DNA of 64,000 nt from assembly GCA_036516895.1 (NCBI GenBank), contig DATDZD010000002.1:13769-77768 (forward strand), read 5' to 3'. The notes under the pieces were generated by a model. It had not been told where the DNA came from. It did not search any database and was given only the letters and a program-made list of their open reading frames with translations. This stretch comes from Minisyncoccota bacterium (GTDB lineage: Bacteria; Patescibacteriota; Minisyncoccia; Phycocordibacterales; PALSA-1337). Shown here piece after piece: positions 30,198 to 45,152 of this stretch. Position numbers and translations under genes: made by a program. Position 1 is the stretch's first letter, and every line of letters starts with the position of its first letter.

Positions 30198-31089
30198 TAT
30201 GGACTTTATAGCAAAAAAATCCCTTGGACAAAACTTTCTTCACGCTCCGCAGGTGATTTCAAAGATGATTCACACGACAAATATTACTCCGGATGATATT
30301 GTCCTTGAAGTTGGTCCAGGTAAAGGAGCTCTGACAGAAAAACTTCTGGAAATTGGAGCTAAAGTCATAGCTGTAGAAAAAGATGATAGACTTATATCTT
30401 TTCTATCAGACAAATTTTCAAAAGAAATAGAGAGCGGACAATTAAAAATAATTCACCAAGATATTTTAGATTTCAATCCATCATTATATGGTTTATCTTC
30501 TAGTAATTATTCCATAATAGCCAATATTCCTTATTACATCAGCGGAGAATTTTTAAGAAAGTTCCTAGAGTCAGATATCCAGCCGTCAAGAATGGTCATA
30601 ATGCTCCAAAAAGAGCTTGCAAAAAGAATCGTGGATAAAAAGGGAAGTATACTTTCCATATCAGTCAAAGCTTATGGGAATCCAAAATACATAACCTCTG
30701 TGCCAAGAAAATTCTTTAGACCAATGCCAAATGTTGATTCAGCAATGCTTTTAATTGAAAATATATCAAAAAAATTCTTCCTTAGGGAAAACAGAATAGA
30801 AGATGAAAGAAAAAAACAAGAAAGAGAAAAGAAAGAAGATATTGAAATGAGCCCAGGAAAAGAAAAAATAAACAACAGAGAGACAAGAATGAGTGAAAAA
30901 AGGTTTTTTGAGCTAGTAAAAGCTGGTTTTGCTCATAAAAGAAAGGTTCTTATAAAAAATATTGAAGAAATAATGACTAAAGACGACATAAAAGAGATTT
31001 GGGAAAGCCAAAAATGGTCTCTTACTCTGCGTGCTGAAGAGCTAACCATTGAGGATTGGATGAAAATAGCTTGTTTTCCACAGAAATAG
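30187..31089 (+). CDS. rsmA: 16S rRNA (adenine1518/1519-N6)-dimethyltransferase RsmA/KsgA, with a Lys/Glu-rich insertion
   Basis: KSLGQNFLHAPQVISKMI...LEVGPGKGALTEKLL is the SAM motif, and ANIPYYIS matches the NLPY motif. Confidence 0.8.
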   Translation: MIFNMDFIAKKSLGQNFLHAPQVISKMIHTTNITPDDIVLEVGPGKGALTEKLLEIGAKVIAVEKDDRLISFLSDKFSKEIESGQLKIIHQDILDFNPSLYGLSSSNYSIIANIPYYISGEFLRKFLESDIQPSRMVIMLQKELAKRIVDKKGSILSISVKAYGNPKYITSVPRKFFRPMPNVDSAMLLIENISKKFFLRENRIEDERKKQEREKKEDIEMSPGKEKINNRETRMSEKRFFELVKAGFAHKRKVLIKNIEEIMTKDDIKEIWESQKWSLTLRAEELTIEDWMKIACFPQK

Positions 31090-31182
31090 CATAAAAATCT
31101 TAGAGAATAATTTACTTTCTTGTTATAATCAACGATAGTGCCCTTGTACTACCCATGAAATAAAGGGCTACCCAGTTTAATT

Positions 31183-32151
31183 ATGGGCAAAAGAAATATC
31201 ATTTTGATTTTCTTGTCTCTACTTATTGTAGTTACGGCTTTTTTCTTTGCAGAATATAGAAATATCAAAACAAAAAAAGCGTCTTATAATGCTATACTTT
31301 CTGCTAATACAGAAACTTTGTCTCCGGAGCTTCAAAACGAAGACAGCGACAATGATGGACTAAAGGACTGGGAAGAGATTTTGCTTGGTACAGACCCTCG
31401 CAATTCGGATACTGATGGTGATGAAACAACTGATGGTAAAGAAGCGGATTTGGGTAGGAATCCTCTTGTCAAAGGACCGAAAGATAGCACAAAGATAACA
31501 TCATCAAATTCAACTGCGATAGAAAATGATTTGACTCCGACAGACAAATTAGCTAGAGACTTTTTTGCTCGCTATATGGAACTTCGTCAAGTTGGACTTT
31601 CACAAGACAAGCAAAGCCAACAAGAACTAGTAGGGCAAGTCTTGAAAAGCGGTATTGTTCTAGCTGTTCCAAAAACATACGAATTGAAAGATATTCTGGT
31701 GATTCCAGATGATAGCAAAGAAGCGGTAAAAAAATATGGGAATGATGTGGGGGCGGTATTTAAAAAATATATTAATTCCAATACTAAAAATGAAATGGTA
31801 ATCGCTAAAGAAAGTGTTGATAAAGAAGATCCAAATCTTTTAAAAGAAATTGACCCAATTATTTCTATATACAAAAATATCCTAACAGAACTACTTAAAA
31901 TAAAGACACCGAAATCTTTAAATGAAAACCATATAGATATGATAAATAGCATAAGTACTCTCAAGTTTTCTGCCGAATCATTGAGAAAAATAGATACAGA
32001 TGCTCTCGCTGGTGTTCAGGGGACAAGTATATGGCTCGGAGCGGCAACTATCCTTAATAAAACTTTCAATACCATCAAGAATAGCTTTTCAACAAACGGG
32101 ATTACTTATACAACAAATGAATCTGGCAGTTTTTTTATGCTACAACAATAA
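31183..32151 (+). CDS. Hypothetical membrane-anchored protein with Asp-rich calcium-binding-like repeats
   Basis: N-terminal TM segment, then DSDNDGLKDWEE..DPRNSDTDGDETTDGKEAD resembling DxDxDG repeats. Confidence 0.4.
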   Translation: MGKRNIILIFLSLLIVVTAFFFAEYRNIKTKKASYNAILSANTETLSPELQNEDSDNDGLKDWEEILLGTDPRNSDTDGDETTDGKEADLGRNPLVKGPKDSTKITSSNSTAIENDLTPTDKLARDFFARYMELRQVGLSQDKQSQQELVGQVLKSGIVLAVPKTYELKDILVIPDDSKEAVKKYGNDVGAVFKKYINSNTKNEMVIAKESVDKEDPNLLKEIDPIISIYKNILTELLKIKTPKSLNENHIDMINSISTLKFSAESLRKIDTDALAGVQGTSIWLGAATILNKTFNTIKNSFSTNGITYTTNESGSFFMLQQ

Positions 32152-32153
32152 TC

Positions 32154-33794
32154 ATGAAAAATATTTTGTCTAAAAGAATAATTTCAGGAATACTCATTAT
32201 AACAATGATATCCTCTGTAATAGGATTATCTTTTCCAAAAAAATCACAAGCCATATTTGGTATTGGGGATATTACTTTTGACCCAACATCTTTTGCTCAA
32301 CATGTAATAAATACAGCAAACACTACCGCCACTTCCTTTTCATCTTATTCCATGCAATTCAAAGAATATGTCCTAGACGGACTTGCAACCGCTCTCGTAA
32401 AACAAATCATACGACAAATGACAGCCAGCGTAGTCAACTGGATAAACTCCGGTTTTGAAGGAAGTCCTTCTTTTGTTACAAATCCAGGTTCATTTTTCCT
32501 TGATGTGGCAGACCAAATCACTGGAGATTTTCTGGCGAAAGCTGGTGGACCACTTACAGCACTTTGTTCTCCATTCAGCATAGACATTCGTATCGCTCTA
32601 GCTTTCAAATATCATCCAAATGTTCTCAAAAAATATGAATGTACTTTGGGAAAAATAATTACAAATAGTAAAAATGCTGTAAAAGGTGCGAGTATAAATG
32701 GATTCACAGCTGGAGATTTCAGCCAAGGGGGATGGCCAGCTTTTGTTTCCCTGACTACAGAACCACAGAATAATTATATTGGAGCGTATCTCATAGCGGA
32801 GGATGAGCTTTCTATAAGGGTGGCGAATGCTCAACTTCAGCAAAAAGATGAAATAAGTCAGGGAAGAGGGTTCTTATCTTGGAGAAAGTGTAGAAAAACT
32901 GGGGAGACAGCGACCGTTCAAGGTTCCGAATCAGCATATGTTGACCATGAACTTGGAGATAATAGTGATCCAAGTAGAACAGAGAGCAACGCTCCTGTAG
33001 TTCATACAAACCAAACCGGAAAAGATTGTGAAATCCAAACCCCAGGCTCTATTATCGTAAGCTCTCTTGAGGCAAATATAAATGGTCCTTTGCATGAACT
33101 CCAGCTTGCAGATGAAATAAATGAAATCGTTAATGCTCTCTTTGCTCAACTCGTCACTCAAGTGTTAACAAAAGGATTGGGATCACTTAGCGGAAGCGGT
33201 CCTAGCGATTCTTCTTCATACATCTATCAGATTCAACAAGAAGCAAAAAATGACACATCCCAAGTCGCTCCAATAAAAGCTGAGATATTAAAAAACATGA
33301 CGACATATTTGGACAACACTTTGCAATACAAGAACAATAAAAACCAGTCTCTAAATCTAATGCTTGATGTCAAAAATTCATACGAATTAGCAAAATCATG
33401 TTATGCTGGAAAAATATCTTCTTCCAACCCTCCACTATCTTCATCACAAGCAAGTTTCGCTCAAAGCAAAATAACTGAAATAGATTCCATCATAAATACT
33501 AAGGTAGCACCTCCTGCTACAAAACTTCTCACGGAAGCACAGGAAGCTGATGCTCGTTATGCAACTCTCAAAAAGATAGAAACTGATGTCAATGCAGCAA
33601 AGACTACCAATGACCTCAACATCCAAAGTCAACAATACAGTCAGATGATTCAAAACAGAACACTTACATCAGCGTCAGACATAGCCAATTCTCAACAAGA
33701 GCTAGACGACACCAAAATTGTGATTGATCCAATGAAAACAGACGCTGGAAGAAAACTTCAAGAATGTCAGTTATTTCCATCGGGAAGCATATAA
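32154..33794 (+). CDS. Hypothetical secreted protein (signal peptide)
   Basis: 546 aa. N-terminal hydrophobic signal ending KSQA. No recognisable catalytic motif. Confidence 0.45.
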   Translation: MKNILSKRIISGILIITMISSVIGLSFPKKSQAIFGIGDITFDPTSFAQHVINTANTTATSFSSYSMQFKEYVLDGLATALVKQIIRQMTASVVNWINSGFEGSPSFVTNPGSFFLDVADQITGDFLAKAGGPLTALCSPFSIDIRIALAFKYHPNVLKKYECTLGKIITNSKNAVKGASINGFTAGDFSQGGWPAFVSLTTEPQNNYIGAYLIAEDELSIRVANAQLQQKDEISQGRGFLSWRKCRKTGETATVQGSESAYVDHELGDNSDPSRTESNAPVVHTNQTGKDCEIQTPGSIIVSSLEANINGPLHELQLADEINEIVNALFAQLVTQVLTKGLGSLSGSGPSDSSSYIYQIQQEAKNDTSQVAPIKAEILKNMTTYLDNTLQYKNNKNQSLNLMLDVKNSYELAKSCYAGKISSSNPPLSSSQASFAQSKITEIDSIINTKVAPPATKLLTEAQEADARYATLKKIETDVNAAKTTNDLNIQSQQYSQMIQNRTLTSASDIANSQQELDDTKIVIDPMKTDAGRKLQECQLFPSGSI

Positions 33795-33802
33795 AATAAC
33801 CC

Positions 33803-35707
33803 ATGAAAAAACACCTGCCTACAATTCTCACTTTGATGATAATCCTAGCAATAGGAGTAGCGATTTTGACTCCAAATATAGCCATGGCAACAGTTTCAGG
33901 AACCAGTATAGTTACAGGAGTCGGTGTAAGCGTGATAAATACAACCCTCGCAAACATTGGAAACGCCATTCTCGGCTGGACAGCCGTTCTTGTTACAGCA
34001 GGCGGAGCTTTCTTGAGTATGGCCATAAACCTCACTACCCATATAGACAAAATATATGAAACTGTATCAGGTATAAAATCCGTATGGGTTACGATAAGAG
34101 ATATATCTAGCATATTTATAATATTTGCTCTCTTATATTTCTCCATAAGGACAATATTGGGTTTTGGCGGTTATAGCACCACAGGCAATCTCAAGGGTCT
34201 TATAGTAAATATATTTATAGCCGGTCTTCTTATAAACTTCAGTCTTTTCTTCGTCAGAGTGGCTATTGACGCTTCAAATCTAGTCTCTTTGCAGTTCTAT
34301 AATGCTATTGCTCCCGATACTTCTAAAAACTGGAGCGTTGGAGATGTATTCAATAATGGCGGTCTCTCAAATGTGTTCATGCAGAGTCTCAAGATTCCGA
34401 CAATATACCAACAATCAAAGAGTTCACAAGGTTTTGATATAGCGGCTGGAATCGGTTTTGCTATCCTTGGAGGAATCATCATGATGGTTACTGCGGCTAT
34501 AAGCTTCTTCGCCGCTGCCATTGCTTTTACTGCTCGCACCGCTATTTTACTTTTTGTTATGGCTATGTCTCCTATATTCTTCGTGGGAATGATATTTCCG
34601 GAAGTAAAAAAGAAAGTGTCCGATAAAATTTCTGGTTTGCTTTATAGTCAATGTGTATTTATGCCTGTATACCTTTTTCTCATGTACATTGCTCTCAAAA
34701 TAATAAGTGATGAAAATTTCATGAAAATATTCAACCCAAATACTTCTGGAGTAGCCGATACAAATGGTTTTGGTCCTGTTTGGATAGGTATTATCATTCA
34801 ATATGCCATCGCCCTTATATTTATAAATATTCCACTAGTAGCGGCAATAGAAATGGGAGCAATCGGTATGAAATGGGCGCCCGGATCATCCGGAGCAAAT
34901 GCTGTAAATAAATGGCTTGGGGGAAAGATTGGGGGATTTGCTGGTAGGAATATTGCTGGTAGAGCTGGGCAGTTGTCTGGTGTGGGCTTTGATAGAATGG
35001 CAGCTTCAGCTCAAGGTTCTTCTCTTGGCAAAGGTACATCAACTGTTCTTCGCGCTCTTGGTATTAGTCAGGGAATTCGTGGCGGATTAACTGCTACAGA
35101 GAAAGGAAAATATGGTGGAACACAAAGTCTTGGTGATATTCAGAAGGAAAATAAGGAGAGGGCAAGAACTATTTCTGGGGTACAGAGAATGAAAGAACAA
35201 CATTTAGCTCTTGCAGCAGTCATTGGTTCAAAGAATACTTCAATAACACCAGCGCAAATGGATAAATTTAGAGAAACTGTGGATAAAATGGGTAATAAAG
35301 ATTTTGAAAATATGAATTTTGAAACCATTAAAGACCCTGTTCTTGCTTCTAACCTATCATCTAAACAAGCTGAATCATTATTGGAAGGAGATATACTTAC
35401 CTCGCAACAGAAAGACGAGTTCAAAAAAATACGAAAAGATAAGATTGTCACAATCATTAATTCTGGAACAGCAACAGATGCCGAAATACATATGAAAAAA
35501 TTATCAGGAAAAGAATTGTCTAAAATGGACAAGACTGTTATTAAGAATCCGAATGTCTTAAAATACTTAACCCCAACTCAACTATTAGAAATGAGAGATA
35601 TTGATGGAGATACTAAAAAATTCATTGGTGACTATATAGAAAATACTGCACTAGGAGACCATAAAGCAAAAGGTTATATAAGAAAAAATCGTACGGAGTG
35701 GAGCTAA
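33803..35707 (+). CDS. Polytopic membrane protein with a hydrophilic C-terminal domain, a VirB6/TrbL-like candidate
   Basis: 634 aa with at least 7 hydrophobic helices in the first 360 aa, then a soluble C-terminal half. The architecture and position upstream of VirB3-like and VirB4 genes resemble Gram-positive VirB6 analogues. This is architecture-based inference only. Confidence 0.4.
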   Translation: MKKHLPTILTLMIILAIGVAILTPNIAMATVSGTSIVTGVGVSVINTTLANIGNAILGWTAVLVTAGGAFLSMAINLTTHIDKIYETVSGIKSVWVTIRDISSIFIIFALLYFSIRTILGFGGYSTTGNLKGLIVNIFIAGLLINFSLFFVRVAIDASNLVSLQFYNAIAPDTSKNWSVGDVFNNGGLSNVFMQSLKIPTIYQQSKSSQGFDIAAGIGFAILGGIIMMVTAAISFFAAAIAFTARTAILLFVMAMSPIFFVGMIFPEVKKKVSDKISGLLYSQCVFMPVYLFLMYIALKIISDENFMKIFNPNTSGVADTNGFGPVWIGIIIQYAIALIFINIPLVAAIEMGAIGMKWAPGSSGANAVNKWLGGKIGGFAGRNIAGRAGQLSGVGFDRMAASAQGSSLGKGTSTVLRALGISQGIRGGLTATEKGKYGGTQSLGDIQKENKERARTISGVQRMKEQHLALAAVIGSKNTSITPAQMDKFRETVDKMGNKDFENMNFETIKDPVLASNLSSKQAESLLEGDILTSQQKDEFKKIRKDKIVTIINSGTATDAEIHMKKLSGKELSKMDKTVIKNPNVLKYLTPTQLLEMRDIDGDTKKFIGDYIENTALGDHKAKGYIRKNRTEWS

Positions 35708-36417
35708 AATATTTTAAAATTATGGATAATCAAAATACACAAAACTTACCTGCAGATATTCTCAAAGCGATTGAGTCTTCTGATGTCTATACTCATCTTG
35801 AAAGTATAGGGGATAGATACAATCTTCTTATTGATCAAATTGGTCAATTAAATGCTGATACAGAAAAATTAATGGTTGGGAAATTAAAATCAGAGATATT
35901 TGTAATCACCATCGCAAAAGATTTGGAAATATCACAAGAAATAGCACAAAAAATATCTGACGATATCAATAATGAGATATTTACTGGTCTTCGTGAATCT
36001 CTTCGTAAAATGCAGGAACAGAGTGAAAAAAAATTCACAAACCCGCTCACACCTCCACCTCCTCCTACTTTCCAAATCCCTAAACCAGTACCACTAACAC
36101 CAACCACTCCTATACCCAAACCGCCGATTACTCAACCTCCTCAAAAAATAAACATCTCTTCAATAGAAAAAGTCGGCAACTTTACCATTGAAAAACGCCC
36201 ATTATCAAATTCCCCCCAATATAAAGATACAAACTTAAAAAGAGAAGATGTTTTGAGGGATATGGAAAACCCAACAACAAAGAGTGGTGTATCTTTTGTA
36301 GACCATCTCCTCTCCAAGCCATTATCAAATGAAATGCAAACAGAAACAAAAAATAAAACCGCTCCTCCACAAGGTTTGCCAGAATATACAGCCGACCCAT
36401 ATAGAGAGCCCATATAG
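35698..36417 (+). CDS. Hypothetical proline-rich protein
   Basis: PPPPTFQIPKPVPLTPTTPIPKPPITQPPQK low-complexity linker. No TM segment. Confidence 0.35.
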   Translation: MELKYFKIMDNQNTQNLPADILKAIESSDVYTHLESIGDRYNLLIDQIGQLNADTEKLMVGKLKSEIFVITIAKDLEISQEIAQKISDDINNEIFTGLRESLRKMQEQSEKKFTNPLTPPPPPTFQIPKPVPLTPTTPIPKPPITQPPQKINISSIEKVGNFTIEKRPLSNSPQYKDTNLKREDVLRDMENPTTKSGVSFVDHLLSKPLSNEMQTETKNKTAPPQGLPEYTADPYREPI

Positions 36418-36435
36418 TAATGCTATAATAAACCC

Positions 36436-36864
36436 ATGCGTTTTCAAGTCCCACAGTTCATTGAAGTAGAAGATAAAATTTTCGGGCCATTAACCCTGAA
36501 ACAATTCATATATCTTGCCGGGGGAGCGGGACTTTCTTTTGTCATATATCAATCCCTCGGCTCTCTTGTATTGGCATTCTTGCCTATCACCATCATCATG
36601 TCTTTTTCTTCAGCATTGGCCTTTTATAAAATAAACAATAAGCCCTTCATTTTCGTCGTTGAAGCGGCATTCAAATACTTTTTCTCAAGCAAATTGTATA
36701 TATGGAAAAAAGGGGAGAACAGCAAAGCGTTGTCAAAATCAGATTCGGAAGCAAAACAATACGCCTCTGTCATGGTTCCAAAAATTTCAGATAGCAAACT
36801 AAAGGATTTGACATGGAGCTTGGATATAAAAGAGAGCATGTACACAGATAGAAATCAAAAATAA
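36436..36864 (+). CDS. Small two-TM membrane protein, VirB3-like candidate
   Basis: 142 aa with a hydrophobic hairpin LAGGAGLSFVIYQSLGSLVLAFLPITIIMSF. It lies directly upstream of the VirB4-like ORFs. Confidence 0.35.
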   Translation: MRFQVPQFIEVEDKIFGPLTLKQFIYLAGGAGLSFVIYQSLGSLVLAFLPITIIMSFSSALAFYKINNKPFIFVVEAAFKYFFSSKLYIWKKGENSKALSKSDSEAKQYASVMVPKISDSKLKDLTWSLDIKESMYTDRNQK

Positions 36865-36865
36865 T

Positions 36866-37498
36866 ATGGCTACGAGTCAAAAAACAACTCAAGATTTTGT
36901 ACCGATACGAGAAATACGCGACGGTGTTGTCATATTGAAAGATGGTTCAATGCGCGCTTTGGTATTGGCTTCGTCTCTCAATTTCGCCTTGAAATCAACC
37001 GATGAACAAAACGCCATAATTCTTCAATTTCAAAATTTCCTCAACTCTCTTGACTTCTCTGTGCAGATTTTCGTCCAGTCAAAAAAGCTTGATATAAGGC
37101 CGTATATTGCTCTACTTGAAGAACGATACAAGGAGCAAGTGACTGAACTTATGAAAATACAAACCAGAGAATACATAGAGTTTATAAAGACTTTCGTGGA
37201 AAATTCCAATATTATGACAAAAAGTTTCTTTTTGATAGTGCCTTACATGCCCCCAACGCTTACTGCAAGCAAAAATCCGGTCAGCAATCTCTTTAATAAA
37301 AAAACTGAAGATAAAACAGTTATAAACGCAGAATTTGAAGAATACAGAAGCCAGCTGGAACAGAGGGTGGGGGTAGTAGAGCAGGGTTTGGTCAGATGCG
37401 GAATAAGGGTGGCGGAACTTGGAACAGAGGAGGTGGTAGAATTGTATTATAAAATATTCAACCCCGGAGAAACAGAGAAACCGATACAGATAAACTGA
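36866..37498 (+). CDS. VirB4 N-terminal-domain-like protein (first part of a split VirB4)
   Basis: DFVPIREIRDGVVILKDGSMRALVLASSLNFALKSTDEQNAIILQFQNFLNSLDFSVQIFVQS resembles the N-terminal region of Gram-positive VirB4/ConE ATPases. The 210 aa here plus the 613 aa of the next ORF approximate full-length VirB4. Confidence 0.4.
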   Translation: MATSQKTTQDFVPIREIRDGVVILKDGSMRALVLASSLNFALKSTDEQNAIILQFQNFLNSLDFSVQIFVQSKKLDIRPYIALLEERYKEQVTELMKIQTREYIEFIKTFVENSNIMTKSFFLIVPYMPPTLTASKNPVSNLFNKKTEDKTVINAEFEEYRSQLEQRVGVVEQGLVRCGIRVAELGTEEVVELYYKIFNPGETEKPIQIN

Positions 37499-37545
37499 TT
37501 ATTCACCAGAAAATCTCCACATAAACAAATAAAAACAATAAAAAA

Positions 37546-39387
37546 ATGAGTATATTTAGCAAATTATTAGGAAAAAAAGAACAAGAAAAGCCAATCGTTT
37601 CTCTTATGCCACAAGAGATATATGAAGCTGGCATCTTGGAACTCAAAGATGTCATTGCCCCTTCGGCTCTCAAAATAAGCCCTAAAGAAATAAACCTTGG
37701 AGAAAAGGTGGCTAGAACATTTTTTGTTATATCCTATCCACGCTTTCTTTCTGAAAGCTGGTTTGCTCCTATTATAAATCTTGATAAAGTCTTCAATATT
37801 TCTATTTTCATCCATCCAGTAGACACCGCAAAAATACTTCGTCATTTCCAAAAGAAAGTAGCGGAGGTCCAAAGCCAAATATCACAAAGAGAAGATAAGG
37901 GTTTAGTGCGGGACCCTATGCTTGATACCGCCTACCAAGACCTTGAGGTGCTCCGAGACAGCTTGATGCAAGCACAAGAAAAGATATTTGATGTTGGCGT
38001 ATACATCACTCTATATGGAGACTCTAGTGCAGAGCTTGATAAAACAGAGTCAGAAATAAAATCCATCCTGGAATCAAAGCTCGTATACATAAAGCCCGCT
38101 CTCTTTCAACAGGAAAGTGGGTACAGAAGCGTTCTTCCTATTGCCAATGATGAGCTAGCGGTGCACTCAAAGCTCAATTCTTCTCCTCTTTCTTCTCTCT
38201 TTCCTTTCGTTTCTTTTGACCTAACATCAGACAAAGGAATTCTCTACGGAATCAATCGCCACAACTCGTCTCTTGTACTTTTTGATAGATTTCTCTTGGA
38301 AAATTACAATTCTGTAACATTTGCAAAAGCTGGAGCGGGAAAATCATACTGCACAAAGCTGGAAATACTCCGTACTCTTATGTTTGACACAGATGTCATT
38401 GTTATAGACCCGGAAAAAGAATACGAGTACATGGCAGAAGCCACTGGAGGAAAATATTTTAATATTTCTCTAAATTCAGAACATCATATCAACCCTTTTG
38501 ACCTTCCTATTCCTAGAGAAGACGAGTCGGCTATAGATGTCCTTCGTTCAAACATTATCAATCTTGTCGGACTCTTTCGCATAATGCTCGGAGGTCTATC
38601 CCAAGAAGAAGACGCTATTATAGACCGAGCTATTACAGAGACATACGCTCTCAAAGATATTACAGCAGAATCAAACTTCAGAAATGTTGAACCGCCACTT
38701 CTATCCGACTTTGAGCTTGTTTTGGCGGGTATGGAAGGAGCCGAATCGCTTGTAGAACGACTGACAAAGTATACAAAAGGCACATGGTCGGGCTTTATAA
38801 ACCGTCCTTCAAATGTTGATATAAACAAAAAATTCGTGGTTTTTTCACTTCGCGATATGGAAGACGAACTCAAACCAGTAGCAATGTATATTGTTACTCA
38901 CTATATCTGGAACGCTATACGCAAACAGCTTAAAAAACGCCTTTTGGTCATAGATGAAGCATGGTGGATGATGAAATCAGAAGATACGGCTTCATTTCTA
39001 CTCGGTCTGGCAAAAAGAGGTCGCAAATACTATCTAGGTCTAGCCACAATCACCCAAGATGTTGATGATTTTCTCAAATCTCCGTATGGTTTGCCTATTA
39101 TTACAAATTCTTCAATTCAAATACTCCTCAAACAATCTCCTTCATCAATAGACAATATCCAAAGAACTTTCAACTTAACAGACGAAGAAAAATATCTTCT
39201 CATTGAATCGGATGTGGGGGAGGGAATATTCTTTGTCGGGCTAAAGCATGTAGCCATAAAAGTCGTAGCCTCATATACAGAAGACCAGATTATTACCACA
39301 AACCCCGCCCAGGTCATGGCAATTCAGCAAGCAAAGAAAGATTTGGAAATGAGTCATGCGATGACGGAGAAAGAAGTGTCAGTATAA
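37546..39387 (+). CDS. VirB4/TraC/TrbE-family conjugation-type ATPase (C-terminal part)
   Basis: Walker A TFAKAGAGKSYCTKLE, Walker B RLLVIDEAWWMM, and a conserved ITQDVDDF region typical of VirB4. Confidence 0.7.
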   Translation: MSIFSKLLGKKEQEKPIVSLMPQEIYEAGILELKDVIAPSALKISPKEINLGEKVARTFFVISYPRFLSESWFAPIINLDKVFNISIFIHPVDTAKILRHFQKKVAEVQSQISQREDKGLVRDPMLDTAYQDLEVLRDSLMQAQEKIFDVGVYITLYGDSSAELDKTESEIKSILESKLVYIKPALFQQESGYRSVLPIANDELAVHSKLNSSPLSSLFPFVSFDLTSDKGILYGINRHNSSLVLFDRFLLENYNSVTFAKAGAGKSYCTKLEILRTLMFDTDVIVIDPEKEYEYMAEATGGKYFNISLNSEHHINPFDLPIPREDESAIDVLRSNIINLVGLFRIMLGGLSQEEDAIIDRAITETYALKDITAESNFRNVEPPLLSDFELVLAGMEGAESLVERLTKYTKGTWSGFINRPSNVDINKKFVVFSLRDMEDELKPVAMYIVTHYIWNAIRKQLKKRLLVIDEAWWMMKSEDTASFLLGLAKRGRKYYLGLATITQDVDDFLKSPYGLPIITNSSIQILLKQSPSSIDNIQRTFNLTDEEKYLLIESDVGEGIFFVGLKHVAIKVVASYTEDQIITTNPAQVMAIQQAKKDLEMSHAMTEKEVSV

Positions 39388-39567
39388 GTAAAATCGTGCG
39401 AACATCCGTATATATCAGGTGTGGAGAGAATACTTTCTTTTTCCGGGTACGAGAATTTTTTACTAAAAATTCTCTCAAGTCCTCGCGCCGACGCGCTCGG
39501 AAGCCCCTCCAAAAGAAGTATTCTCTCCACACCTAGCATACAATAAAGAATGCGAGTCAATTTTACC
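39388..39567 (-). repeat. Intergenic palindromic repeat, divergent family copy E (about 180 bp, reverse orientation)
   Basis: It starts GTAAAATCGTGCGA and ends GCGAGTCAATTTTACC. The internal part is itself a long palindrome (GGTGTGGAGAGAATACTTCTTTT ... AAAAGAAGTATTCTCTCCACACC). It lies directly after the VirB4 stop. Confidence 0.5.
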
Positions 39568-39572
39568 AAAAC

Positions 39573-39989
39573 ATGAACATGGATGAACAAAACAAAGAAA
39601 ACAGAATAGGAACAATAGCTATATTAGTCCTTATTTTCGTATCCGGTCTAGCTGACGCAGGAACATTAATCCCTTTTGTGGGCGACTTCGTAAGCCCTTT
39701 GTTTTGGACATGTATGACATACTATCTTTACAAGATAAAACATGGGCTTCTAAATTGGAAAATATTTGCTCCGAGTATTGTCTCTTTTGTATCGGAATTT
39801 ATCCCTGTAGTGCAAGCATTCCCAACAATTATAGGCGCTACTATAGCCATAATATTTGTATCCCGACTTGAAGATAAGACTGGAATATCTCTAATGAAAC
39901 CCTTATCGCAAGGTCAGAAAGTTCACTTACCCAGCAGAACACCACCTCTTAATCAAGGCGGAATAAGGCAACCAAGAAATATATTATAA
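39573..39989 (+). CDS. Hypothetical small membrane protein
   Basis: 138 aa with 2-3 hydrophobic helices. Confidence 0.4.
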   Translation: MNMDEQNKENRIGTIAILVLIFVSGLADAGTLIPFVGDFVSPLFWTCMTYYLYKIKHGLLNWKIFAPSIVSFVSEFIPVVQAFPTIIGATIAIIFVSRLEDKTGISLMKPLSQGQKVHLPSRTPPLNQGGIRQPRNIL

Positions 39990-40018
39990 TAGTCAGAATT
40001 TATGATAAAATATAGCAA

Positions 40019-41068
40019 ATGAAATCTCGCACAAAAATACTATTGAAAACTACACTGAATATCTTCTATGTTACATTTTTTACAATAATTTTTTCTTTTA
40101 TATTTGTCATATCTATTCACGCCCAAATTCCCAACTCTATTGATGGTGTAGAGATTGGCTCTGACCCAGAAAATCCCAATCCGGGACAAAATGTAACCGT
40201 GAGTGTAGAGAGTTATAATACAGACTTGAATTCTGCTTCTGTTGTTTGGCTTGTAAATGGCAAGAATTATGCTCAAGGTACTGGTTTGAAATCTGTGAGT
40301 GTTTCTGCGCCGTCTTTGGGTAAAAATACAAGTATTGTGACAATTATTATGACCGCCGAAGGAAAGGAGGTCAGAAAATCAATAACAATAAAATCAGGGT
40401 CAGTAGATTTAGTATGGGAAAGTGAAGGTTATATTCCACCTTTTTACAAAGGCAAAGCGGTTTTCGCCTATGAAAATCTTGTCAAAATAACTGCCATGCC
40501 ACACCTTTCTAATAATGAAAGTGCAGAATTGGACTCTCGCACTCTAATATATAAATGGAAAAAGAATGACAAGGTAGTCCTAGATCAGTCTGGCTATGGA
40601 AAACAAACTCTGATTATAAAAGAAGATATTCCTAGACCTATTGATATAGAATTGGAAGTAACAACAAAGAATGGCAGTCAAAAGGGTGTGGCGTTTATAA
40701 CTCTTCAGCCGGGAGAGCCATCAATCTCTTTCTATGAAGAAGACCCTCTCTATGGAGTGTTATACAATAAAGCTATTATTAACAGAATCAGTCTTTCAAA
40801 TCAAGAAATAAATATCCGTGCTGTGCCATATAATTTTACTTCATACGCCAAAAACTCTCCTTTGACCTATTCTTGGAGTATAAATAATCTTCTTCAGCCA
40901 GAACTTTCCACAAACCAGAGTATTATCTTGAGAACAAGAGGGGATACAGAAGGAAGTTCGGCTATTTCTCTTGAAGTTAGAAATACAGATGACATACTTC
41001 AAGGAGCACGCAATACCATAGATGTATTATTTAATAAAAGACCAATAGAAAGCAGTGTGGCCTTTTGA
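40019..41068 (+). CDS. Hypothetical secreted or membrane-anchored beta-rich protein
   Basis: 349 aa with an N-terminal TM/signal (IFYVTFFTIIFSFIFVISIHA) and repetitive beta-strand-like sequence. Confidence 0.45.
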   Translation: MKSRTKILLKTTLNIFYVTFFTIIFSFIFVISIHAQIPNSIDGVEIGSDPENPNPGQNVTVSVESYNTDLNSASVVWLVNGKNYAQGTGLKSVSVSAPSLGKNTSIVTIIMTAEGKEVRKSITIKSGSVDLVWESEGYIPPFYKGKAVFAYENLVKITAMPHLSNNESAELDSRTLIYKWKKNDKVVLDQSGYGKQTLIIKEDIPRPIDIELEVTTKNGSQKGVAFITLQPGEPSISFYEEDPLYGVLYNKAIINRISLSNQEINIRAVPYNFTSYAKNSPLTYSWSINNLLQPELSTNQSIILRTRGDTEGSSAISLEVRNTDDILQGARNTIDVLFNKRPIESSVAF

Positions 41069-41077
41069 TAAAAAGAA

Positions 41078-42226
41078 ATGAAAAAAATAATTTCTTACAA
41101 TTTCATAATGCTCATATATCTCGCTATAATCTTTGGTTCTAGCATAAATATTTCTCATGCTCAAAATACATACAAACTTCTTGAGCCGTTGCCCAATATA
41201 ATGGGCACTGGGCAAAAAGGTGAGTGTGTTGATGAAAAAAATAAAACTATAACTTGTATAAACCTTGAAACTTATGTGGGCTATGTCTTCAAACTAGCTA
41301 TAGCTCTTGCTGTATTTTTGGCAGTGGTAGTCCTCATATATGGCGGTTTTGAATACATGCTAGGCGAAGCCATAGGTACCAAAGCTGCCGCAAAATCAAG
41401 AATGACAAATGCCATTTATGGGCTTCTTGGAGCGTTGGTTTCATATTTGATATTGGTCACAATAGACCCAAGATTGGTGCAGATAAATACGAATATTCCG
41501 GAGATAAATATTAAAATAGATAGAGAAACTGCGAATTTTCAGAAGCAGTTAAGTAATGATTTGAACAATATGTCAGGAGAATCAAGATTGAAGGTAATAG
41601 AAGCTACAAATAAGATAAAGGAGCTTGAAAAAGAAAGAGGTGGTGTTATGCAAAAACTTGGTTCAGGTACCAGTATTGAAAACGAAAATTATGTAAAAGA
41701 ATTGGCTAGAATTGACCAGGAAATCAAAGAGAATAAATCTACAGTAATAACAGAGTCGGCCAAATCATTAGGGTCAAGCCAGTTTGGTAAGATTTTTGAT
41801 GTAATTCGTACTCCTCAAAACTATAATGCGACTTCCTTAAAGATTACAGACGAAGCTCAAGGAGTTATAGATAGTAACAGAAATACTATTGTTAAAAACT
41901 ATGATGATTATGCAAAACAGCTTGATGAGATTCAAGAGTATGAAAAAGCTAGAGAAGTTAGAACGACAAAAGAATTTCTTTTAGATCAAATAAAACAGGA
42001 ACAGGAATTGCGTGGGATGATTAATCACTATAATCACGAAGACCCTATCAAAAAACCTTATTGGGAAAAACAAATGAGAGATCTACTTGCAAAATATGCC
42101 AGTCCACCAAAAGACGAGATGGTTAATAAATATAGAAATTATCCTGATATATTAACTCAATATAATGAATATAAGACTGTCCGAGCAAACATAATTAGTC
42201 AAACCCTAAAACCCCCAGGAAAATAA
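41078..42226 (+). CDS. Hypothetical protein with a signal peptide, a hydrophobic helical hairpin, and a long coiled coil
   Basis: Signal MKKIISYNFIMLIYLAIIFGSSINISHA, then Cys-containing segment, then two TM helices (VFKLAIALAVFLAVVVLIY...LLGALVSYLILVTI). This is a VirB2/TrbC-like topology at the N-terminus. Confidence 0.4.
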   Translation: MKKIISYNFIMLIYLAIIFGSSINISHAQNTYKLLEPLPNIMGTGQKGECVDEKNKTITCINLETYVGYVFKLAIALAVFLAVVVLIYGGFEYMLGEAIGTKAAAKSRMTNAIYGLLGALVSYLILVTIDPRLVQINTNIPEINIKIDRETANFQKQLSNDLNNMSGESRLKVIEATNKIKELEKERGGVMQKLGSGTSIENENYVKELARIDQEIKENKSTVITESAKSLGSSQFGKIFDVIRTPQNYNATSLKITDEAQGVIDSNRNTIVKNYDDYAKQLDEIQEYEKAREVRTTKEFLLDQIKQEQELRGMINHYNHEDPIKKPYWEKQMRDLLAKYASPPKDEMVNKYRNYPDILTQYNEYKTVRANIISQTLKPPGK

Positions 42227-42227
42227 T

Positions 42228-43487
42228 ATGACCAAAAAAATAATTTTCATCTTCATGCTCATTATTCTCCTCGCCGGAGGCGTGTATTACTTTTTTTTCT
42301 ATCAGAGCAAGCCCATGTCACTTACCGATACAGCAGAAGCTCCTCCAACAGGATTCAGTCCTATAAACCGCTCTAGTGTTGCTACACCAAAAAATACAAC
42401 ACCATCAGCAACAAGCACCCCCAGACAGAATACAGTAACGGAGCAAGCAAGAATACCAGCCCTACGCCACTTGAGCACAACCCCTGTAGGTGGCTTCATG
42501 GCAAGCTCTACAGCCAGTTCTACAGTGGTTCGTTATGTGGATAGGGGAGTAGGTCATATATACGAATCTTTAAGTACAAAGAACGAAATAAAAAAGATAT
42601 CAAATACCACAATTCCTCGTATATATGAAAGTTATTGGAATAAAAACCTAAATACTGCCATTTTTAGATACATGAAAGACGAGACAGATACAATAGCAAA
42701 TTTCTATGCTGAAATAAGACCAATCAAAACATCAACCAGCACTTTAGAAACAATAAATGAAGTAAATAGCGAAATAAAAGGAAAATTCATATCTTCGGAT
42801 ATAAAAGAAATAGCTGTCTCTCCAAAAAAAGACCGTGTTTTCACTTTCAATATAGAAAATGGAAGAGGGATAGGGTATATCTCTGGTTTTGATGAAAGTA
42901 AAAAGACAAAAATCATTGACATACCTATTACTCAAGTCAATATAGAGTGGCCAGAAGAAAATACTCTTGCAATTACAACAAAATCATCCGGTGTATCATC
43001 TGGATATTTATATCTAATAGACATAAAAAAACCATCTCTCAAAAAAATACTGGGCGGGATTACAGGTTTGAATGCAAAGGTAAGTCATGACGCAAAGAAA
43101 ATACTTTTCTCATCTAGCAATTCAAAGGGATTTGCGATGAGTATATACAATATAAAAGATTCTTCTACACAAGAAATGGTCTTTAGAACTACCGCTGACA
43201 AATGCGTATGGAGCAAAATTCGCCCAAACGAACTTTATTGCTCCGTCCCAGTAGAATTCCCAGCAGGAATGTATCCTGATGATTGGTACAAGGGGGTAAT
43301 ATCATTTGCAGACCAGATATGGCAATTAGACACAACGACAGGAGAAGTGCATCTTATGGCAAATCTTTTGAAAATTTCTGATGAACTTATTGATGCTGTA
43401 GACCTGACTCTAGACCCGAAAGAAGACTATTTATTCTTTGTAAATAAAAGAGATTTGACTCTTTGGTCGCTGGATTTGAATAGATAA
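42228..43487 (+). CDS. Hypothetical membrane-anchored protein with a Ser/Thr-rich linker and a beta-propeller-like C-terminal region
   Basis: 419 aa with an N-terminal TM helix. No catalytic motif recognised. Confidence 0.4.
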   Translation: MTKKIIFIFMLIILLAGGVYYFFFYQSKPMSLTDTAEAPPTGFSPINRSSVATPKNTTPSATSTPRQNTVTEQARIPALRHLSTTPVGGFMASSTASSTVVRYVDRGVGHIYESLSTKNEIKKISNTTIPRIYESYWNKNLNTAIFRYMKDETDTIANFYAEIRPIKTSTSTLETINEVNSEIKGKFISSDIKEIAVSPKKDRVFTFNIENGRGIGYISGFDESKKTKIIDIPITQVNIEWPEENTLAITTKSSGVSSGYLYLIDIKKPSLKKILGGITGLNAKVSHDAKKILFSSSNSKGFAMSIYNIKDSSTQEMVFRTTADKCVWSKIRPNELYCSVPVEFPAGMYPDDWYKGVISFADQIWQLDTTTGEVHLMANLLKISDELIDAVDLTLDPKEDYLFFVNKRDLTLWSLDLNR

Positions 43488-43509
43488 AATTATGCAAAAT
43501 TATTGTTTA

Positions 43510-43617
43510 GGTAAAATCAGCTCGCCTACTTGCGCTCGGAAGCTCTTTTATTTGTTCTCCGCCTGCTGGCGGATAAAAATAAAAGACTTCCTCACCGCAG
43601 GCTCGCACGATTTTACT
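43510..43617 (+). repeat. Intergenic palindromic repeat, family copy C
   Basis: GGTAAAATCAGCTCGCCTACTTGCGCTCGGAAGCTC...CACCGCAGGCTCGCACGATTTTACT. It lies between convergent genes (the 42228 gene and yidC). Confidence 0.6.
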
Positions 43618-43623
43618 AAATAA

Positions 43624-44370
43624 TTACAATGGCTGATGCTTTTTTAAGTGCCTTCTCACAACAATCTCTTGTCCTAAAGTAAAAATACTCGTAACCGTCC
43701 AATAAAGAGCCACCACAGCCGCTATATTGTAAGAAATAAAGAAAACCATTATAGGAAAGACATATTTCATGCTTTTTGTCATATTTTGAGCCATGTCCAT
43801 CTGAATATTTGAACTTGTGTCAGTATTTACACCAGTCCCTGTAGATTTCATTGAAGCAAGAGAGAAGTGGAGCTGTAGAAATTGAGCAATTGCCGCAATA
43901 ATAGCCATAATTGTATTTTTTGCACCTATATCCACAAGACCAAGAAAATTCATATCTACCGTGGGAACATTTACGAAACCGTAAAGCAATTCCGTATTTA
44001 CAACAGGCAAACCAGAACGAAAGAAAATAGAATAAAGAGCCCAGATAATAGGCAATTGAACTAAAAGAACTAGAAAACTAGAAAAAGGACTAATTTTCTT
44101 TTCTTTATACAAAGCCATCATCTTAAGAGCTTGACCCTGACGGTCGTCTTTCATCATCTGCTTCAAACGATTTATTTCCGGCTCTAATTCTTTCATGCGA
44201 ACCTGCGTAACTATGGCTTTCTTTGATAATGGAAAAAGGATGAGGCGTATAATGATAGTAAATATAATAACTACAATTCCAGCGTCTACCCAAGGAAGAA
44301 TATCCATCAAGTATATAAGCCCATTGTAAAGTGGATTAAATATAATGGTGTTATAGAAAGAAGAGAACAT
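43624..44370 (-). CDS. yidC: Membrane protein insertase YidC (short form)
   Basis: 248 aa polytopic protein. It sits in the conserved rpmH-rnpA-yidC arrangement and has YidC-like TM helices with a conserved Arg-containing first helix. Confidence 0.75.
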   Translation of the reverse strand: MFSSFYNTIIFNPLYNGLIYLMDILPWVDAGIVVIIFTIIIRLILFPLSKKAIVTQVRMKELEPEINRLKQMMKDDRQGQALKMMALYKEKKISPFSSFLVLLVQLPIIWALYSIFFRSGLPVVNTELLYGFVNVPTVDMNFLGLVDIGAKNTIMAIIAAIAQFLQLHFSLASMKSTGTGVNTDTSSNIQMDMAQNMTKSMKYVFPIMVFFISYNIAAVVALYWTVTSIFTLGQEIVVRRHLKKHQPL

Positions 44371-44379
44371 GTGTGTATT

Positions 44380-44715
44380 TTACTTCAAAAGACCCAATTT
44401 AACAAAAGATTGCTCTAAAATAGATGATATTTCAATAAAAGACGCCTTTTTTATAGAGTCTTTAGATATAAAGACGCCATAAAATCCTTCTTTAATTTTC
44501 GGATACAATATTCTTATCGCCGAATACACTCTTCTACGAATTTTATTCCTCTCTACAGCGCTTTTTGCTACTTTTTTTGGAACTGATACAGAAAAACGAC
44601 TTGGACCAATAGTTTTTAATAATTTTAAAATAAACAAGGAAGAATGATAAGTCATCCCACCATCAATAGTATCCTTAAAGAGAGTTGTGGTCAGTCTTTT
44701 TTGGTTTGGAAGCAT
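44380..44715 (-). CDS. rnpA: Ribonuclease P protein component
   Basis: 111 aa basic protein with the RNR motif region AVERNKIRRRVYSAIR. It lies immediately downstream of rpmH. Confidence 0.8.
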   Translation of the reverse strand: MLPNQKRLTTTLFKDTIDGGMTYHSSLFILKLLKTIGPSRFSVSVPKKVAKSAVERNKIRRRVYSAIRILYPKIKEGFYGVFISKDSIKKASFIEISSILEQSFVKLGLLK

Positions 44716-44716
44716 A

Positions 44717-44851
44717 TTACACAGCTATTTTCTTTCTGCCTTTTGCCCTGCGACGCTTTATAACATTTCTTCCATTGCTAGTCTTGCTTCTAACAAGAAA
44801 ACCGTGTGTTTTTGCACGCTTTCTTTTCTTTGGTTTATAGGTAAATGACAT
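44717..44851 (-). CDS. rpmH: 50S ribosomal protein L34
   Basis: [44 protein letters not shown] is the L34 signature. The track ORF is longer but the conserved L34 starts at this Met. Confidence 0.85.
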
Positions 44852-44992
44852 ATTTAGCAAGAATACATTATGATAGAAGAAAAGGCAAGGAGTACGAGTA
44901 AAATTTAGGCGAAATCCGTTCCGCAGAAGTCTTTTTTTCTGACGCTTGCCGGAAGAAAAAAAGAGCTTGTGCGGAAGCAAGGATTTCACCAA

Positions 44993-45152
44993 ATTTTACC
45001 TAGACATTATTTTAATTTATCTTGTAGTTTTATTTTTCCACAGGTTATCAACATACTTATAAACTTTCCACAAGTTCTTTACTTTTTAAAGAAGTATATA
45101 CTACTAATACTATTTTATTTATTTTTATCATCATCATAAAAATCTCATAAAA
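44993..45152 (+). promoter_or_regulatory. AT-rich dnaA upstream region with degenerate DnaA boxes (TTTTCCACA, TTATCAACA, TTTCCACAA), an oriC candidate part
   Basis: Directly seen. It lies between the divergent rpmH and dnaA genes and ends in a very AT-rich stretch before the dnaA ATG. Confidence 0.4.

What the first reader, a model, noticed from the sequence alone, without database searches (positions are those of the whole stretch)
36866..39387. VirB4 ATPase encoded as two separate ORFs (N-terminal domain of 210 aa plus ATPase of 613 aa)
The 210 aa ORF matches the N-terminal region of Gram-positive VirB4 and ConE proteins. The 613 aa ORF starts 47 bp later in another frame, and both frames carry stop codons in the spacer. 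Summed, the lengths are about 823 aa, and the Walker A position at about 470 matches full-length VirB4. This is either a genuine split, which is unusual and suggests the N-domain acts as a separate subunit as VirB3 does, or a disrupted gene.
Basis: partly seen in the sequence, partly recalled or inferred. Interest (0 to 1): 0.5.

Follow-up and report, generated by a model that had tools for sequence, protein, structure and literature searches.

The report
Conserved two-gene VirB4 (TrsD plus ATPase)

Summary
This is not a disrupted gene.

- **No simple repair.** No single indel can join A and B.
- **Reproducible.** Five independent assemblies carry the same spacer.
- **Conserved split.** In 79 of 79 testable species-level relatives, A ends at the homologous stop and B starts at its own ATG. 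Spacers run from -4 to 421 nt, and all three relative frames and all three stop codons occur.
- **A is under purifying selection.**
- **A is the start of VirB4.** Its sequence matches the first ~125-185 positions of VirB4/TrbE models. Its AlphaFold model (pLDDT 88.8) hits only R388 TrwK/VirB4 chains.
- **B is the rest.** It covers the remainder of the N-terminal domain plus the Walker A/B ATPase.
- **Same split in cultured bacteria.** The order VirB3-like, then TrsD, then ~620-670 aa ATPase occurs in Staphylococcus pSK41 (TrsC-TrsD-TrsE) and other Bacillota plasmids. A 797-aa natural fusion also exists.
- **Already published.** Quinonero-Coronel et al. 2025 describe TrsD as a remote homologue of the VirB4 N-terminus, found next to virB4 across Patescibacteria and essential in Southlakia.

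Verdict: real, ordinary for this clade, already known. The proposed assembly of A with B and PrgI is inferred, not shown.

The parts
36436..36864 (+). PrgI-family (VirB3-like) small membrane protein, 142 aa. Its stop lies 1 nt before the ATG of ORF A.
   Evidence: Pfam PF12666 PrgI, E 8.9e-9, 36.2 bits against a cutoff of 27. It has hydrophobic segments. A homologue lies directly upstream of the ORF A homologue in 79/79 testable related loci, mostly -1 to 15 nt away.
36866..37498 (+). ORF A, 210 aa: a stand-alone TrsD-like / 'TraC-like' protein, equivalent to the first sub-domain of the VirB4 N-terminal domain. Soluble, with no predicted transmembrane segment.
   Evidence: NCBIfam hits to the N-termini of VirB4/TrbE families and to TrsD/TraD NF041427. 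Precomputed Pfam PF26593 'TraC-like'. AF2 model pLDDT 88.8. The top 14 Foldseek PDB hits are all TrwK/VirB4. hhalign against pSK41 TrsD gives E 1.9e-4 over 173 columns. dN/dS is about 0.04-0.13. 149 of the 150 best representative hits are stand-alone proteins.
37499..37545 (+). 47-nt A-rich intergenic spacer between ORF A and ORF B, with stops in both relevant frames.
   Evidence: The spacer is identical in five independent assemblies. No promoter-like or terminator-like site was found in it. Relatives have spacers of -4 to 421 nt with a median of 6.
37546..39387 (+). ORF B, 613 aa: a TrsE-like VirB4 ATPase lacking the first NTD sub-domain. It comprises the second half of the NTD plus the RecA-like ATPase domain.
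   Evidence: NCBIfam CD1110-family VirB4, 366.9 bits against a cutoff of 325, profile positions 178-733/752. Pfam P-loop_TraG, AAA_10 and DUF87. PDB 4AG5 VirB4 C-terminal domain, E 6.9e-40; TrwK 438-735 aligns with B 245-551. B aligns from residue 7 with residue 5 of pSK41 TrsE, E 4e-35.
38323..38346 (+). Walker A motif AKAGAGKS (ORF B residues 260-267).
   Evidence: Read from the translation and from the alignment with the fusion protein P0359 (GKAGSGKS).
38941..38958 (+). Walker B motif LLVIDE (ORF B residues 466-471).
   Evidence: Motif scan.

Best explanation
This is the intact core of the chromosomal, monoderm-type (MPF-FATA-like) type IV secretion system of a Paceibacteria-type member of the Patescibacteria (CPR). 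In this lineage VirB4 is encoded as two genes as a matter of course. ORF A is a ~210-aa soluble TrsD-like protein corresponding to the first sub-domain of the VirB4 N-terminal domain. ORF B is a ~610-aa TrsE-like protein carrying the rest of the N-terminal domain and the Walker A/B ATPase. They are transcribed together with the upstream VirB3-like PrgI gene.

The likely mechanism is inferred by analogy with the R388 structure, where VirB3 wraps the VirB4 N-terminal domain and that domain mediates VirB4-VirB4 and VirB8-tail contacts. ORF A would dock non-covalently onto ORF B to complete the VirB4 N-terminal domain. It would also bind membrane-embedded PrgI, tethering the ATPase hexamer to the membrane translocon. 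The ATPase then powers assembly and secretion.

Shown here: both genes are intact, selected and conserved as separate genes; ORF A has the VirB4 N-terminal fold; the split point is the same as in pSK41 TrsD/TrsE; a natural fusion exists. Inferred: the physical A-B and A-PrgI contacts and the role in membrane anchoring.
For: Split conserved: in 79/79 species-level loci A ends at the homologous stop and B starts at its own ATG. Spacers are -4..421 nt (median 6), relative frames 0/1/2 occur 12/35/32 times, and stops are TAA 53, TAG 19, TGA 7.

Database relatives: the top 120 relatives of A are all 209-220 aa and the top 120 of B are all 585-616 aa.

Reproducibility: five independent assemblies have the same 47-nt spacer and differ by 1-5 SNPs across the stretches compared. 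No single indel can fuse the ORFs.

Selection: ORF A has 109-123 third-position differences against 9-18 second-position differences over 210 codons, and omega is 0.04-0.13 in the 8 pairs where dS is computable.

Identity: A matches positions ~2-185 of VirB4/TrbE profiles and B matches the remainder. The AF2 model of A (pLDDT 88.8) hits only TrwK/VirB4 chains with probability >=0.99 (TMq 0.44-0.55); the next hits have probability <=0.33.

Rosetta-stone fusion: P0359 (797 aa) consists of an A-like part (residues 1-214, 43% id), a 10-aa linker, and a B-like part (225-796, 55% id).

Same layout in cultured bacteria: pSK41 trsC (135 aa) - trsD (227 aa) - 672-aa ATPase (TrsE). B aligns with that ATPase from its very N-terminus. 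Geobacillus, Halobacillus and C. botulinum plasmids have PrgI, then an N-domain gene, then a DUF87 ATPase.

PrgI sits directly upstream of A in 79/79 loci.

Literature: TrsD is a remote homologue of the VirB4 N-terminus, has 2,272 homologues in Patescibacteria (1,664 next to virB4), and is essential in Ca. Southlakia epibionticum. The T4SS lies near dnaA and ksgA, as it does here (PMC12102498; window context). In R388, VirB3 wraps the VirB4 NTD (residues 15-400) (PMC9259494).
Against: No direct evidence for an A-B or A-PrgI complex. My attempt to model the natural fusion failed (mean pLDDT 60, pTM 0.39, B part mostly below 50), so inter-domain packing could not be examined.

ORF A scores far below the curated cutoff of the NCBIfam TrsD/TraD model (29 against 200 bits), and hhalign probability against pSK41 TrsD is only 47.5%. 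The link to TrsD itself is therefore remote homology plus synteny.

Structural similarity to TrwK is moderate (TMq ~0.5, rmsd 6-8 A). Foldseek did not report which TrwK residues were aligned, so the mapping to TrwK ~1-190 rests on profile coordinates.

The window's 47-nt spacer is longer than in most relatives and has no recognisable Shine-Dalgarno sequence. Most genes in this window lack one too.
Confidence: 0.85

Rival explanations
1. Disrupted gene or artefact: an originally fused ~820-aa virB4 was broken by a frameshift or nonsense mutation, or by a sequencing or assembly error, making it a pseudogene.
For: The two ORFs are adjacent, in different frames, and together cover a full-length VirB4 profile. 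Fused VirB4 is the textbook form, and one fused relative exists (P0359).
Against: The same stop and start positions occur in 79/79 related species at 67-90% aa identity for ORF A, with every relative frame and spacers from -4 to 421 nt. The best 120 listed relatives of each ORF are all stand-alone (209-220 aa and 585-616 aa), out of at least 8000 hits each. ORF A is under strong purifying selection. The spacer is identical in five independent assemblies. No single indel can join the frames. The same split exists in the functional conjugative plasmid pSK41.
Confidence: 0.01
2. Programmed recoding: ribosomal frameshifting or stop-codon readthrough across the spacer yields a fused full-length VirB4 alongside the separate products.
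For: The genes are very close in most relatives (median spacer 6 nt), and a fused form is clearly viable (P0359).
Against: No conserved recoding geometry exists. Relative frames 0/1/2 occur in 12/35/32 loci, all three stop codons are used, and spacer length and sequence vary. In the window, the shift into B's frame would have to occur in the 21 nt between B's in-frame TAA (37522-37524) and its ATG, which lies beyond A's own stop (37496-37498). No slippery motif or structure was sought or noticed in the A-rich spacer.
Confidence: 0.02
3. ORF A has diverged into an independent accessory or regulatory factor. It might, for example, be a decoy or assembly chaperone that competes for PrgI/VirB3 or controls ATPase oligomerisation, rather than a structural part of the VirB4 protomer.
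For: [quoted passage not shown] Many stand-alone homologues carry extra C-terminal extensions: 250-443 aa and 257-345 aa on Bacillota plasmids. In Gracilibacteria, TrsD homologues are reported as not associated with virB4. ORF A evolves faster than ORF B (67-90% against 78-96% identity).
Against: ORF B lacks exactly the segment that ORF A supplies, and the two are complementary on every VirB4 profile. The natural fusion joins them through a 10-aa linker in the canonical order. Tight, often overlapping PrgI-A-B spacing suggests co-translation in fixed ratios. The TrsD homologue is essential, like the other T4SS genes, in Southlakia.
Confidence: 0.1

Closest known systems
TrsD + VirB4 pair of the Patescibacteria T4SS (Quinonero-Coronel et al. 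2025, Microb Genom, PMC12102498; essential cluster SEML1_0006-0019 of Ca. Southlakia epibionticum, Wang et al. 2023, PMC10633639)
   Same: Same lineage (the closest proteins are Paceibacterota/Patescibacteria MAGs). Same components (PrgI/VirB3, TrsD-like, VirB4, and a pilin-like gene downstream at 41078-42226 with a weak T4SS_pilin hit). Same chromosomal setting next to ksgA and ~6 kb from dnaA/dnaN. No relaxase or coupling protein was seen among the neighbours scanned.
   Different: Nothing substantive; this window is one more instance. The paper calls TrsD a remote homologue of the VirB4 N-terminus with no assigned function. In the passages I read, it does not say that the neighbouring VirB4 lacks that segment or that the break point matches pSK41 TrsE. 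Those points are added here.
TrsC-TrsD-TrsE of Staphylococcus aureus pSK41/pGO1 (and TraD/TraE-type pairs covered by NCBIfam NF041427 TrsD/TraD)
   Same: Same gene order: a small VirB3-like membrane protein, a ~210-230-aa soluble protein, then a ~610-670-aa DUF87/VirB4 ATPase. ORF B aligns with pSK41 TrsE from residue 7/5 onward, so the split point is homologous. The ORF A profile aligns with TrsD over its whole length.
   Different: The similarity is very remote: 17% identity for A against TrsD and 24% for B against TrsE. [quoted passage not shown] The window's system is chromosomal, near oriC, and no relaxase or coupling protein was seen among the neighbours scanned.
Full-length VirB4 / TrwK of R388 (PDB 7O41, 7O42, 7O43, 8RTB, 8RTD), TrbE, CD1110-family VirB4
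   Same: A and B together cover the whole protein. A has the fold of the N-terminal part of TrwK. B has the ATPase domain with Walker A and B motifs.
   Different: It is a single ~800-aa polypeptide in those systems and two polypeptides here. The break lies inside the canonical N-terminal domain (TrwK 15-400), not at the NTD/CTD boundary.
VirB3-VirB4 fusions (e.g. Campylobacter plasmids, cited in PMC12102498)
   Same: They show that the VirB3 / VirB4-NTD / ATPase modules can be joined or separated at the gene level without loss of function.
   Different: The direction is opposite (fusion rather than fission). No VirB3-VirB4 fusion was reported in Patescibacteria, and PrgI is a separate gene here.

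Membership tests
VirB4-family T4SS ATPase (ORF B) | Match to a curated VirB4 model above its cutoff | tested here: met
   NCBIfam NF045971 (VirB4-like, CD1110 family): 366.9 bits against a cutoff of 325, E 2e-109, profile positions 178-733/752. Pfam P-loop_TraG: 92.5 bits against a cutoff of 25.8.
VirB4-family T4SS ATPase (ORF B) | Walker A and Walker B nucleotide-binding motifs | tested here: met
   AKAGAGKS at residues 260-267 (alignment). LLVIDE at residues 466-471.
VirB4-family T4SS ATPase (ORF B) | Sequence homology to a solved VirB4 structure | tested here: met
   4AG5 (T. pseudethanolicus VirB4 C-terminal domain) E 6.9e-40. TrwK (7O41) E 9.5e-7, with B 245-551 aligned to TrwK 438-735.
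Canonical full-length VirB4 (TIGR00929 type) | N-terminal domain and ATPase domain on one polypeptide of ~800 aa | tested here: not met
   There are two ORFs with separate stop and start codons, conserved in 79/79 relatives. TIGR00929 scores are 19.1 bits (A) and 119.8 bits (B) against a cutoff of 643.
TrsD/TraD family (NCBIfam NF041427) / Pfam PF26593 'TraC-like' (ORF A) | Match to the family model above the curated cutoff | tested here: not met
   NF041427: E 8.7e-7 but 29 bits against a cutoff of 200, so this is remote homology only. PF26593 is recorded as a precomputed hit for the identical protein P0001 and all close relatives. The model is absent from the local Pfam copy, which returned no hit, so I could not rescore it.
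TrsD/TraD family (ORF A) | Small soluble protein encoded between the VirB3-like gene and a short (~610-670 aa) VirB4 ATPase | tested here: met
   Window order is PrgI 36436-36864, A 36866-37498, B 37546-39387. The same order occurs in pSK41, in three other Bacillota plasmids and in 79/79 related loci. No transmembrane segment is predicted in A.
TrsD/TraD family (ORF A) | Homology to the N-terminal portion of VirB4 | tested here: met
   NCBIfam hits to the N-termini of six VirB4/TrbE models (best E 1.2e-10). Foldseek top 14 hits are all TrwK/VirB4, probability >=0.99. The fusion protein P0359 carries the A-like part at its N-terminus.
Pseudogene / frameshifted gene | The break is lineage-specific, relatives are intact, and constraint is relaxed | tested here: not met
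   The break is shared by all 79 testable species. Omega is about 0.04-0.13. The sequence is identical in independent assemblies.
Functional T4SS subunit complex (A + B + PrgI) | Physical association of the three proteins and ATPase activity | not testable with these tools
   Only inference from the R388 structure. The AF2 model of the natural fusion was too poor to use.

The most novel reading that the evidence does not exclude
The fission of VirB4 inside its N-terminal domain is functionally exploited rather than neutral. As a free subunit, the TrsD-like module could be loaded onto only a subset of ATPase protomers, for instance the equivalents of 'central' versus 'outside' VirB4. Alternatively it could be exchanged dynamically, giving a regulated membrane-docking switch for the essential epibiotic T4SS of Patescibacteria and for pGO1-type conjugation systems. 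The literature I read assigns TrsD no function and does not state that the partner ATPase lacks exactly this module.
Probability: 0.15. Interest if true: 0.5.

Novelty: already known. Interest (0 to 1): 0.15.

Why it matters
For genome annotation, ORF A and its thousands of relatives, mostly labelled 'hypothetical protein', should be named as the TrsD-like N-terminal module of VirB4. The pair should not be flagged as a frameshifted pseudogene.

Biologically, the Patescibacteria T4SS is essential for the epibiotic lifestyle in the one system tested, and TrsD has no assigned function. Recognising that TrsD plus the short ATPase reconstitute a complete VirB4, with a natural fusion as a control, gives a concrete hypothesis for structural work. 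None of this changes current understanding, because the arrangement is already published.

Tried and rejected
1. AF2 model of the natural fusion P0359, using an unpaired alignment of A and B homologues, to see how the A part packs on the B part. Mean pLDDT was 60, pTM 0.39, and the B part was mostly below 50. It was unusable and was not searched further.

2. Sequence searches of ORF A against PDB chains, as a single sequence and as a 55-sequence profile. Neither gave a meaningful hit. Only the fold comparison found TrwK.

3. The local Pfam copy gave no family for ORF A. The relevant model, PF26593, is newer than that copy.

4. The main text of Guglielmini et al. 2014 (PMC4027160) does not mention TrsD by name. 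The statement on TrsD-VirB4 homology is therefore cited from PMC12102498, which attributes it to that paper.

5. The PLoS Pathog 2026 pELF paper (PMC13492992) uses 'TraD' for a VirD4-like protein and is irrelevant here. A search for TrsD+TrsE+VirB4 found no paper.

6. The promoter/terminator scan found nothing in the spacer, and overall counts did not exceed the shuffle expectation.

7. Pseudogene, assembly error and programmed recoding were considered and rejected (see rivals).
Full report
**Observation.** They are separated by a 47-nt A-rich spacer and lie in different frames. A's frame ends at TGA 37496-37498. B's frame carries a TAA at 37522-37524, downstream of A's stop, so no single insertion or deletion could join them.

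**What the two proteins are.**
- ORF B passes the curated cutoff of the NCBIfam CD1110-family VirB4 model (366.9 against 325 bits), but only over profile positions 178-733 of 752.
- ORF B also hits Pfam P-loop_TraG, AAA_10 and DUF87 and the solved VirB4 C-terminal domain 4AG5 (E 6.9e-40). B 245-551 aligns with TrwK 438-735.
- ORF A gives weak but consistent hits to the first ~125-185 positions of six VirB4/TrbE models. The best is VirB4_plasma at E 1.2e-10; TIGR00929 positions 3-173 and TrbE 11-170 also match.
- ORF A also hits the stand-alone TrsD/TraD family NF041427 over positions 11-182 of 201 (E 8.7e-7, far below the curated cutoff).
- The two ORFs are therefore complementary pieces of one VirB4. 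The TrwK N-terminal domain spans residues 15-400 (PMC9259494), so the break lies inside that domain. A is roughly its first half, and B keeps ~245 NTD residues plus the ATPase.
- An AlphaFold2 model of A, built on 55 diverse homologues, is confident (mean pLDDT 88.8, pTM 0.77). In a Foldseek search of the PDB its top 14 hits are all TrwK/VirB4 chains of the R388 T4SS (probability 0.99-1.00, TMq 0.44-0.55). All other hits fall to probability 0.33 or less.

**Is the split real?** Yes, on six independent grounds.

1. Each ORF has at least 8000 relatives in the protein collection. The best 120 for A are all 209-220 aa, and the best 120 for B are all 585-616 aa. All are from Patescibacteria/Paceibacterota MAGs.
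2. A scan of species-representative genomes returned 80 loci at 67-90% identity to A.
   - In all 79 where the downstream region is present, A ends at the homologous stop (…IQIN*) and B begins at its own ATG.
   - Spacers range from -4 (ATGA overlap) to 421 nt, with a median of 6.
   - Relative frames 0/1/2 occur 12/35/32 times, and stop codons are TAA 53, TAG 19, TGA 7.
   - This variability excludes both a shared frameshift artefact and a conserved recoding signal.
3. ORF A is under purifying selection. Third-position differences number 109-123 against 9-18 at second positions over 210 codons. Omega is 0.04-0.13 in the 8 pairs where dS is not saturated.
4. Five independent assemblies from different samples carry the identical 210-aa gene, the identical 47-nt spacer and the 613-aa gene. 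They differ from the window by 1-5 SNPs across the stretches compared.
5. In an exhaustive search of 1.84 billion cluster representatives, 149 of the best 150 hits to A are stand-alone proteins of 146-443 aa.
   - The one exception, P0359 (797 aa), is a natural fusion.
   - Its residues 1-214 match A (43% identity) and residues 225-796 match B residues 28-598 (55% identity), joined by ~10 residues.
   - This Rosetta-stone case shows that A and B act as one functional unit and that the gene boundary sits at a linker.
6. A PrgI-family (VirB3-like) gene (36436-36864; Pfam PF12666) ends 1 nt before A. A homologue lies immediately upstream of A in 79/79 testable loci.

**The arrangement is known.**
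- Bacillota plasmids in the curated collection show the same order:
  - Geobacillus pGspE55-1 has PrgI, then a 318-aa hypothetical protein, then a 636-aa DUF87 protein.
  - A Halobacillus plasmid has an annotated TrsD followed by a DUF87 protein.
  - C. botulinum pCBG has PrgI, then a 'TraC family protein' of 257 aa, then a 620-aa ATP-binding protein.
- The classical staphylococcal conjugative plasmid pSK41 has trsC (135 aa), trsD (227 aa, 'TrsD/TraD family') and a 672-aa DUF87 ATPase, TrsE.
- ORF B aligns with TrsE from residue 7 to residue 5 onward (E 4e-35), so the split point is homologous. The ORF A profile aligns with TrsD over 173 columns (hhalign E 1.9e-4, probability 47.5%).
- Quinonero-Coronel et al. 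2025 (PMC12102498) report the following:
  - They found 2,272 homologues in 2,221 assemblies, 1,664 of them associated with virB4.
  - The TrsD homologue next to virB4 is essential in Ca. Southlakia epibionticum ML1.
  - These T4SS clusters tend to lie near dnaA, dnaN and ksgA and lack relaxases.
- The window fits this description in full. UvrD is at 28233, KsgA at 30187, DnaA at 45153 and DnaN at 46717. A protein with a weak T4SS-pilin hit lies at 41078-42226. A polytopic membrane protein lies at 33803-35707.
- Wang et al. 2023 (PMC10633639) describe the essential Southlakia T4SS as resembling Gram-positive conjugative systems, but with pilins and without recognisable coupling or relaxase proteins.

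**Mechanism (inferred).** In the R388 structure, VirB3 wraps the N-terminal domain of the central VirB4. NTD-NTD contacts form the VirB4 dimer, and VirB8 tails bind the NTD of the outer VirB4. By analogy, ORF A most likely docks onto ORF B to complete the VirB4 NTD and binds the membrane protein PrgI. That would anchor the ATPase hexamer beneath the translocon. Neither A nor B has a predicted transmembrane segment, whereas PrgI does. The tight spacing of PrgI-A-B in most relatives, often overlapping or only 1 nt apart, suggests co-translation. No promoter-like or terminator-like site lies in the window's spacer. The absence of a Shine-Dalgarno sequence before B is uninformative, because most genes in the window lack one. 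I could not test the A-B interface: the AF2 model of the fusion P0359 with an unpaired alignment was poor (pLDDT 60, pTM 0.39).

**Rivals.**
- Pseudogene or assembly error is refuted by the comparative data.
- Programmed frameshift or readthrough is refuted by the lack of any conserved geometry and by the stop arrangement in the window.
- An independent regulatory role for A cannot be excluded. TrsD has no assigned function, some homologues carry C-terminal extensions, and Gracilibacteria TrsD genes are reportedly unlinked to virB4. This is less parsimonious given the exact complementarity with B and the natural fusion.

**Verdict.** The 'genuine split' reading is right, but the arrangement is the norm for this clade and for pGO1/pSK41-type systems, and it is already in the literature. 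The work here adds four small points. The partner ATPase lacks exactly the TrsD-equivalent segment. The break point is shared with pSK41 TrsE. A predicted structure supports the VirB4-NTD fold. A natural fusion exists. Novelty: already known. Interest: low.

Noticed in passing
window 28233-47823: The T4SS-like cluster (about 31183-43487, all on the + strand) sits between uvrD (28233-30197) and ksgA (30187-31089) on one side and dnaA (45153-46499) and dnaN (46717-47823) on the other. It is therefore chromosomal and next to the probable replication origin, matching the pattern published for Patescibacteria (PMC12102498).
   Followed up: partly
protein P0359 (797 aa, from the representative library; no locus available): A natural fusion of the TrsD-like module and the short VirB4 ATPase through a ~10-residue linker. 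It was the only fused protein among the 150 best hits to ORF A. Its genomic origin could not be looked up.
   Followed up: partly
L070 4647-6444: In one relative (MAG MFD04780.bin.2.113), the ATPase gene matches ORF B in two different frames: B residues 1-266 in frame 3 and 249-599 in frame 1. This suggests a frameshift or assembly error inside that copy of the ATPase, unrelated to the A/B boundary.
   Followed up: no
L075 4640-5060; L065 4649-4861; L068, L059, L051: A few relatives have unusually long A-B spacers (421, 213, 115, 107 and 84 nt) against a median of 6 nt. Whether these hold a small inserted ORF or another element was not examined.
   Followed up: no
window, start regions of 15 genes (e.g. 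36866, 37546, 45153, 46717): Almost no gene in the cluster or its neighbourhood has a recognisable Shine-Dalgarno sequence. Leaders are A/T-rich, and window GC is 36.2%.
   Followed up: no
window 31183-35707 and 39573-43487: Several large cluster genes have no Pfam or NCBIfam family. These are 32154-33794 (546 aa), 33803-35707 (634 aa, strongly hydrophobic, a possible VirB6 analogue), 35698-36417 (239 aa, proline-rich), 39573-39989 (138 aa, hydrophobic), 40019-41068 (349 aa) and 42228-43487 (419 aa). The protein at 41078-42226 has only a sub-threshold T4SS_pilin hit (23.5 against 26.6 bits).
   Followed up: partly
window 39388-39572: A 185-nt gap lies between the stop of the ATPase gene and the next gene. 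It holds only short overlapping ORFs on both strands and has no feature assigned. It was not searched for RNA families.
   Followed up: no
representative hits P0276-P0390; plasmid loci L081-L083: Many stand-alone TrsD-like homologues are longer (250-443 aa) than the 210-aa form here, as are the Bacillota plasmid versions (257-345 aa). The module therefore often carries an extra C-terminal region of unknown nature.
   Followed up: no
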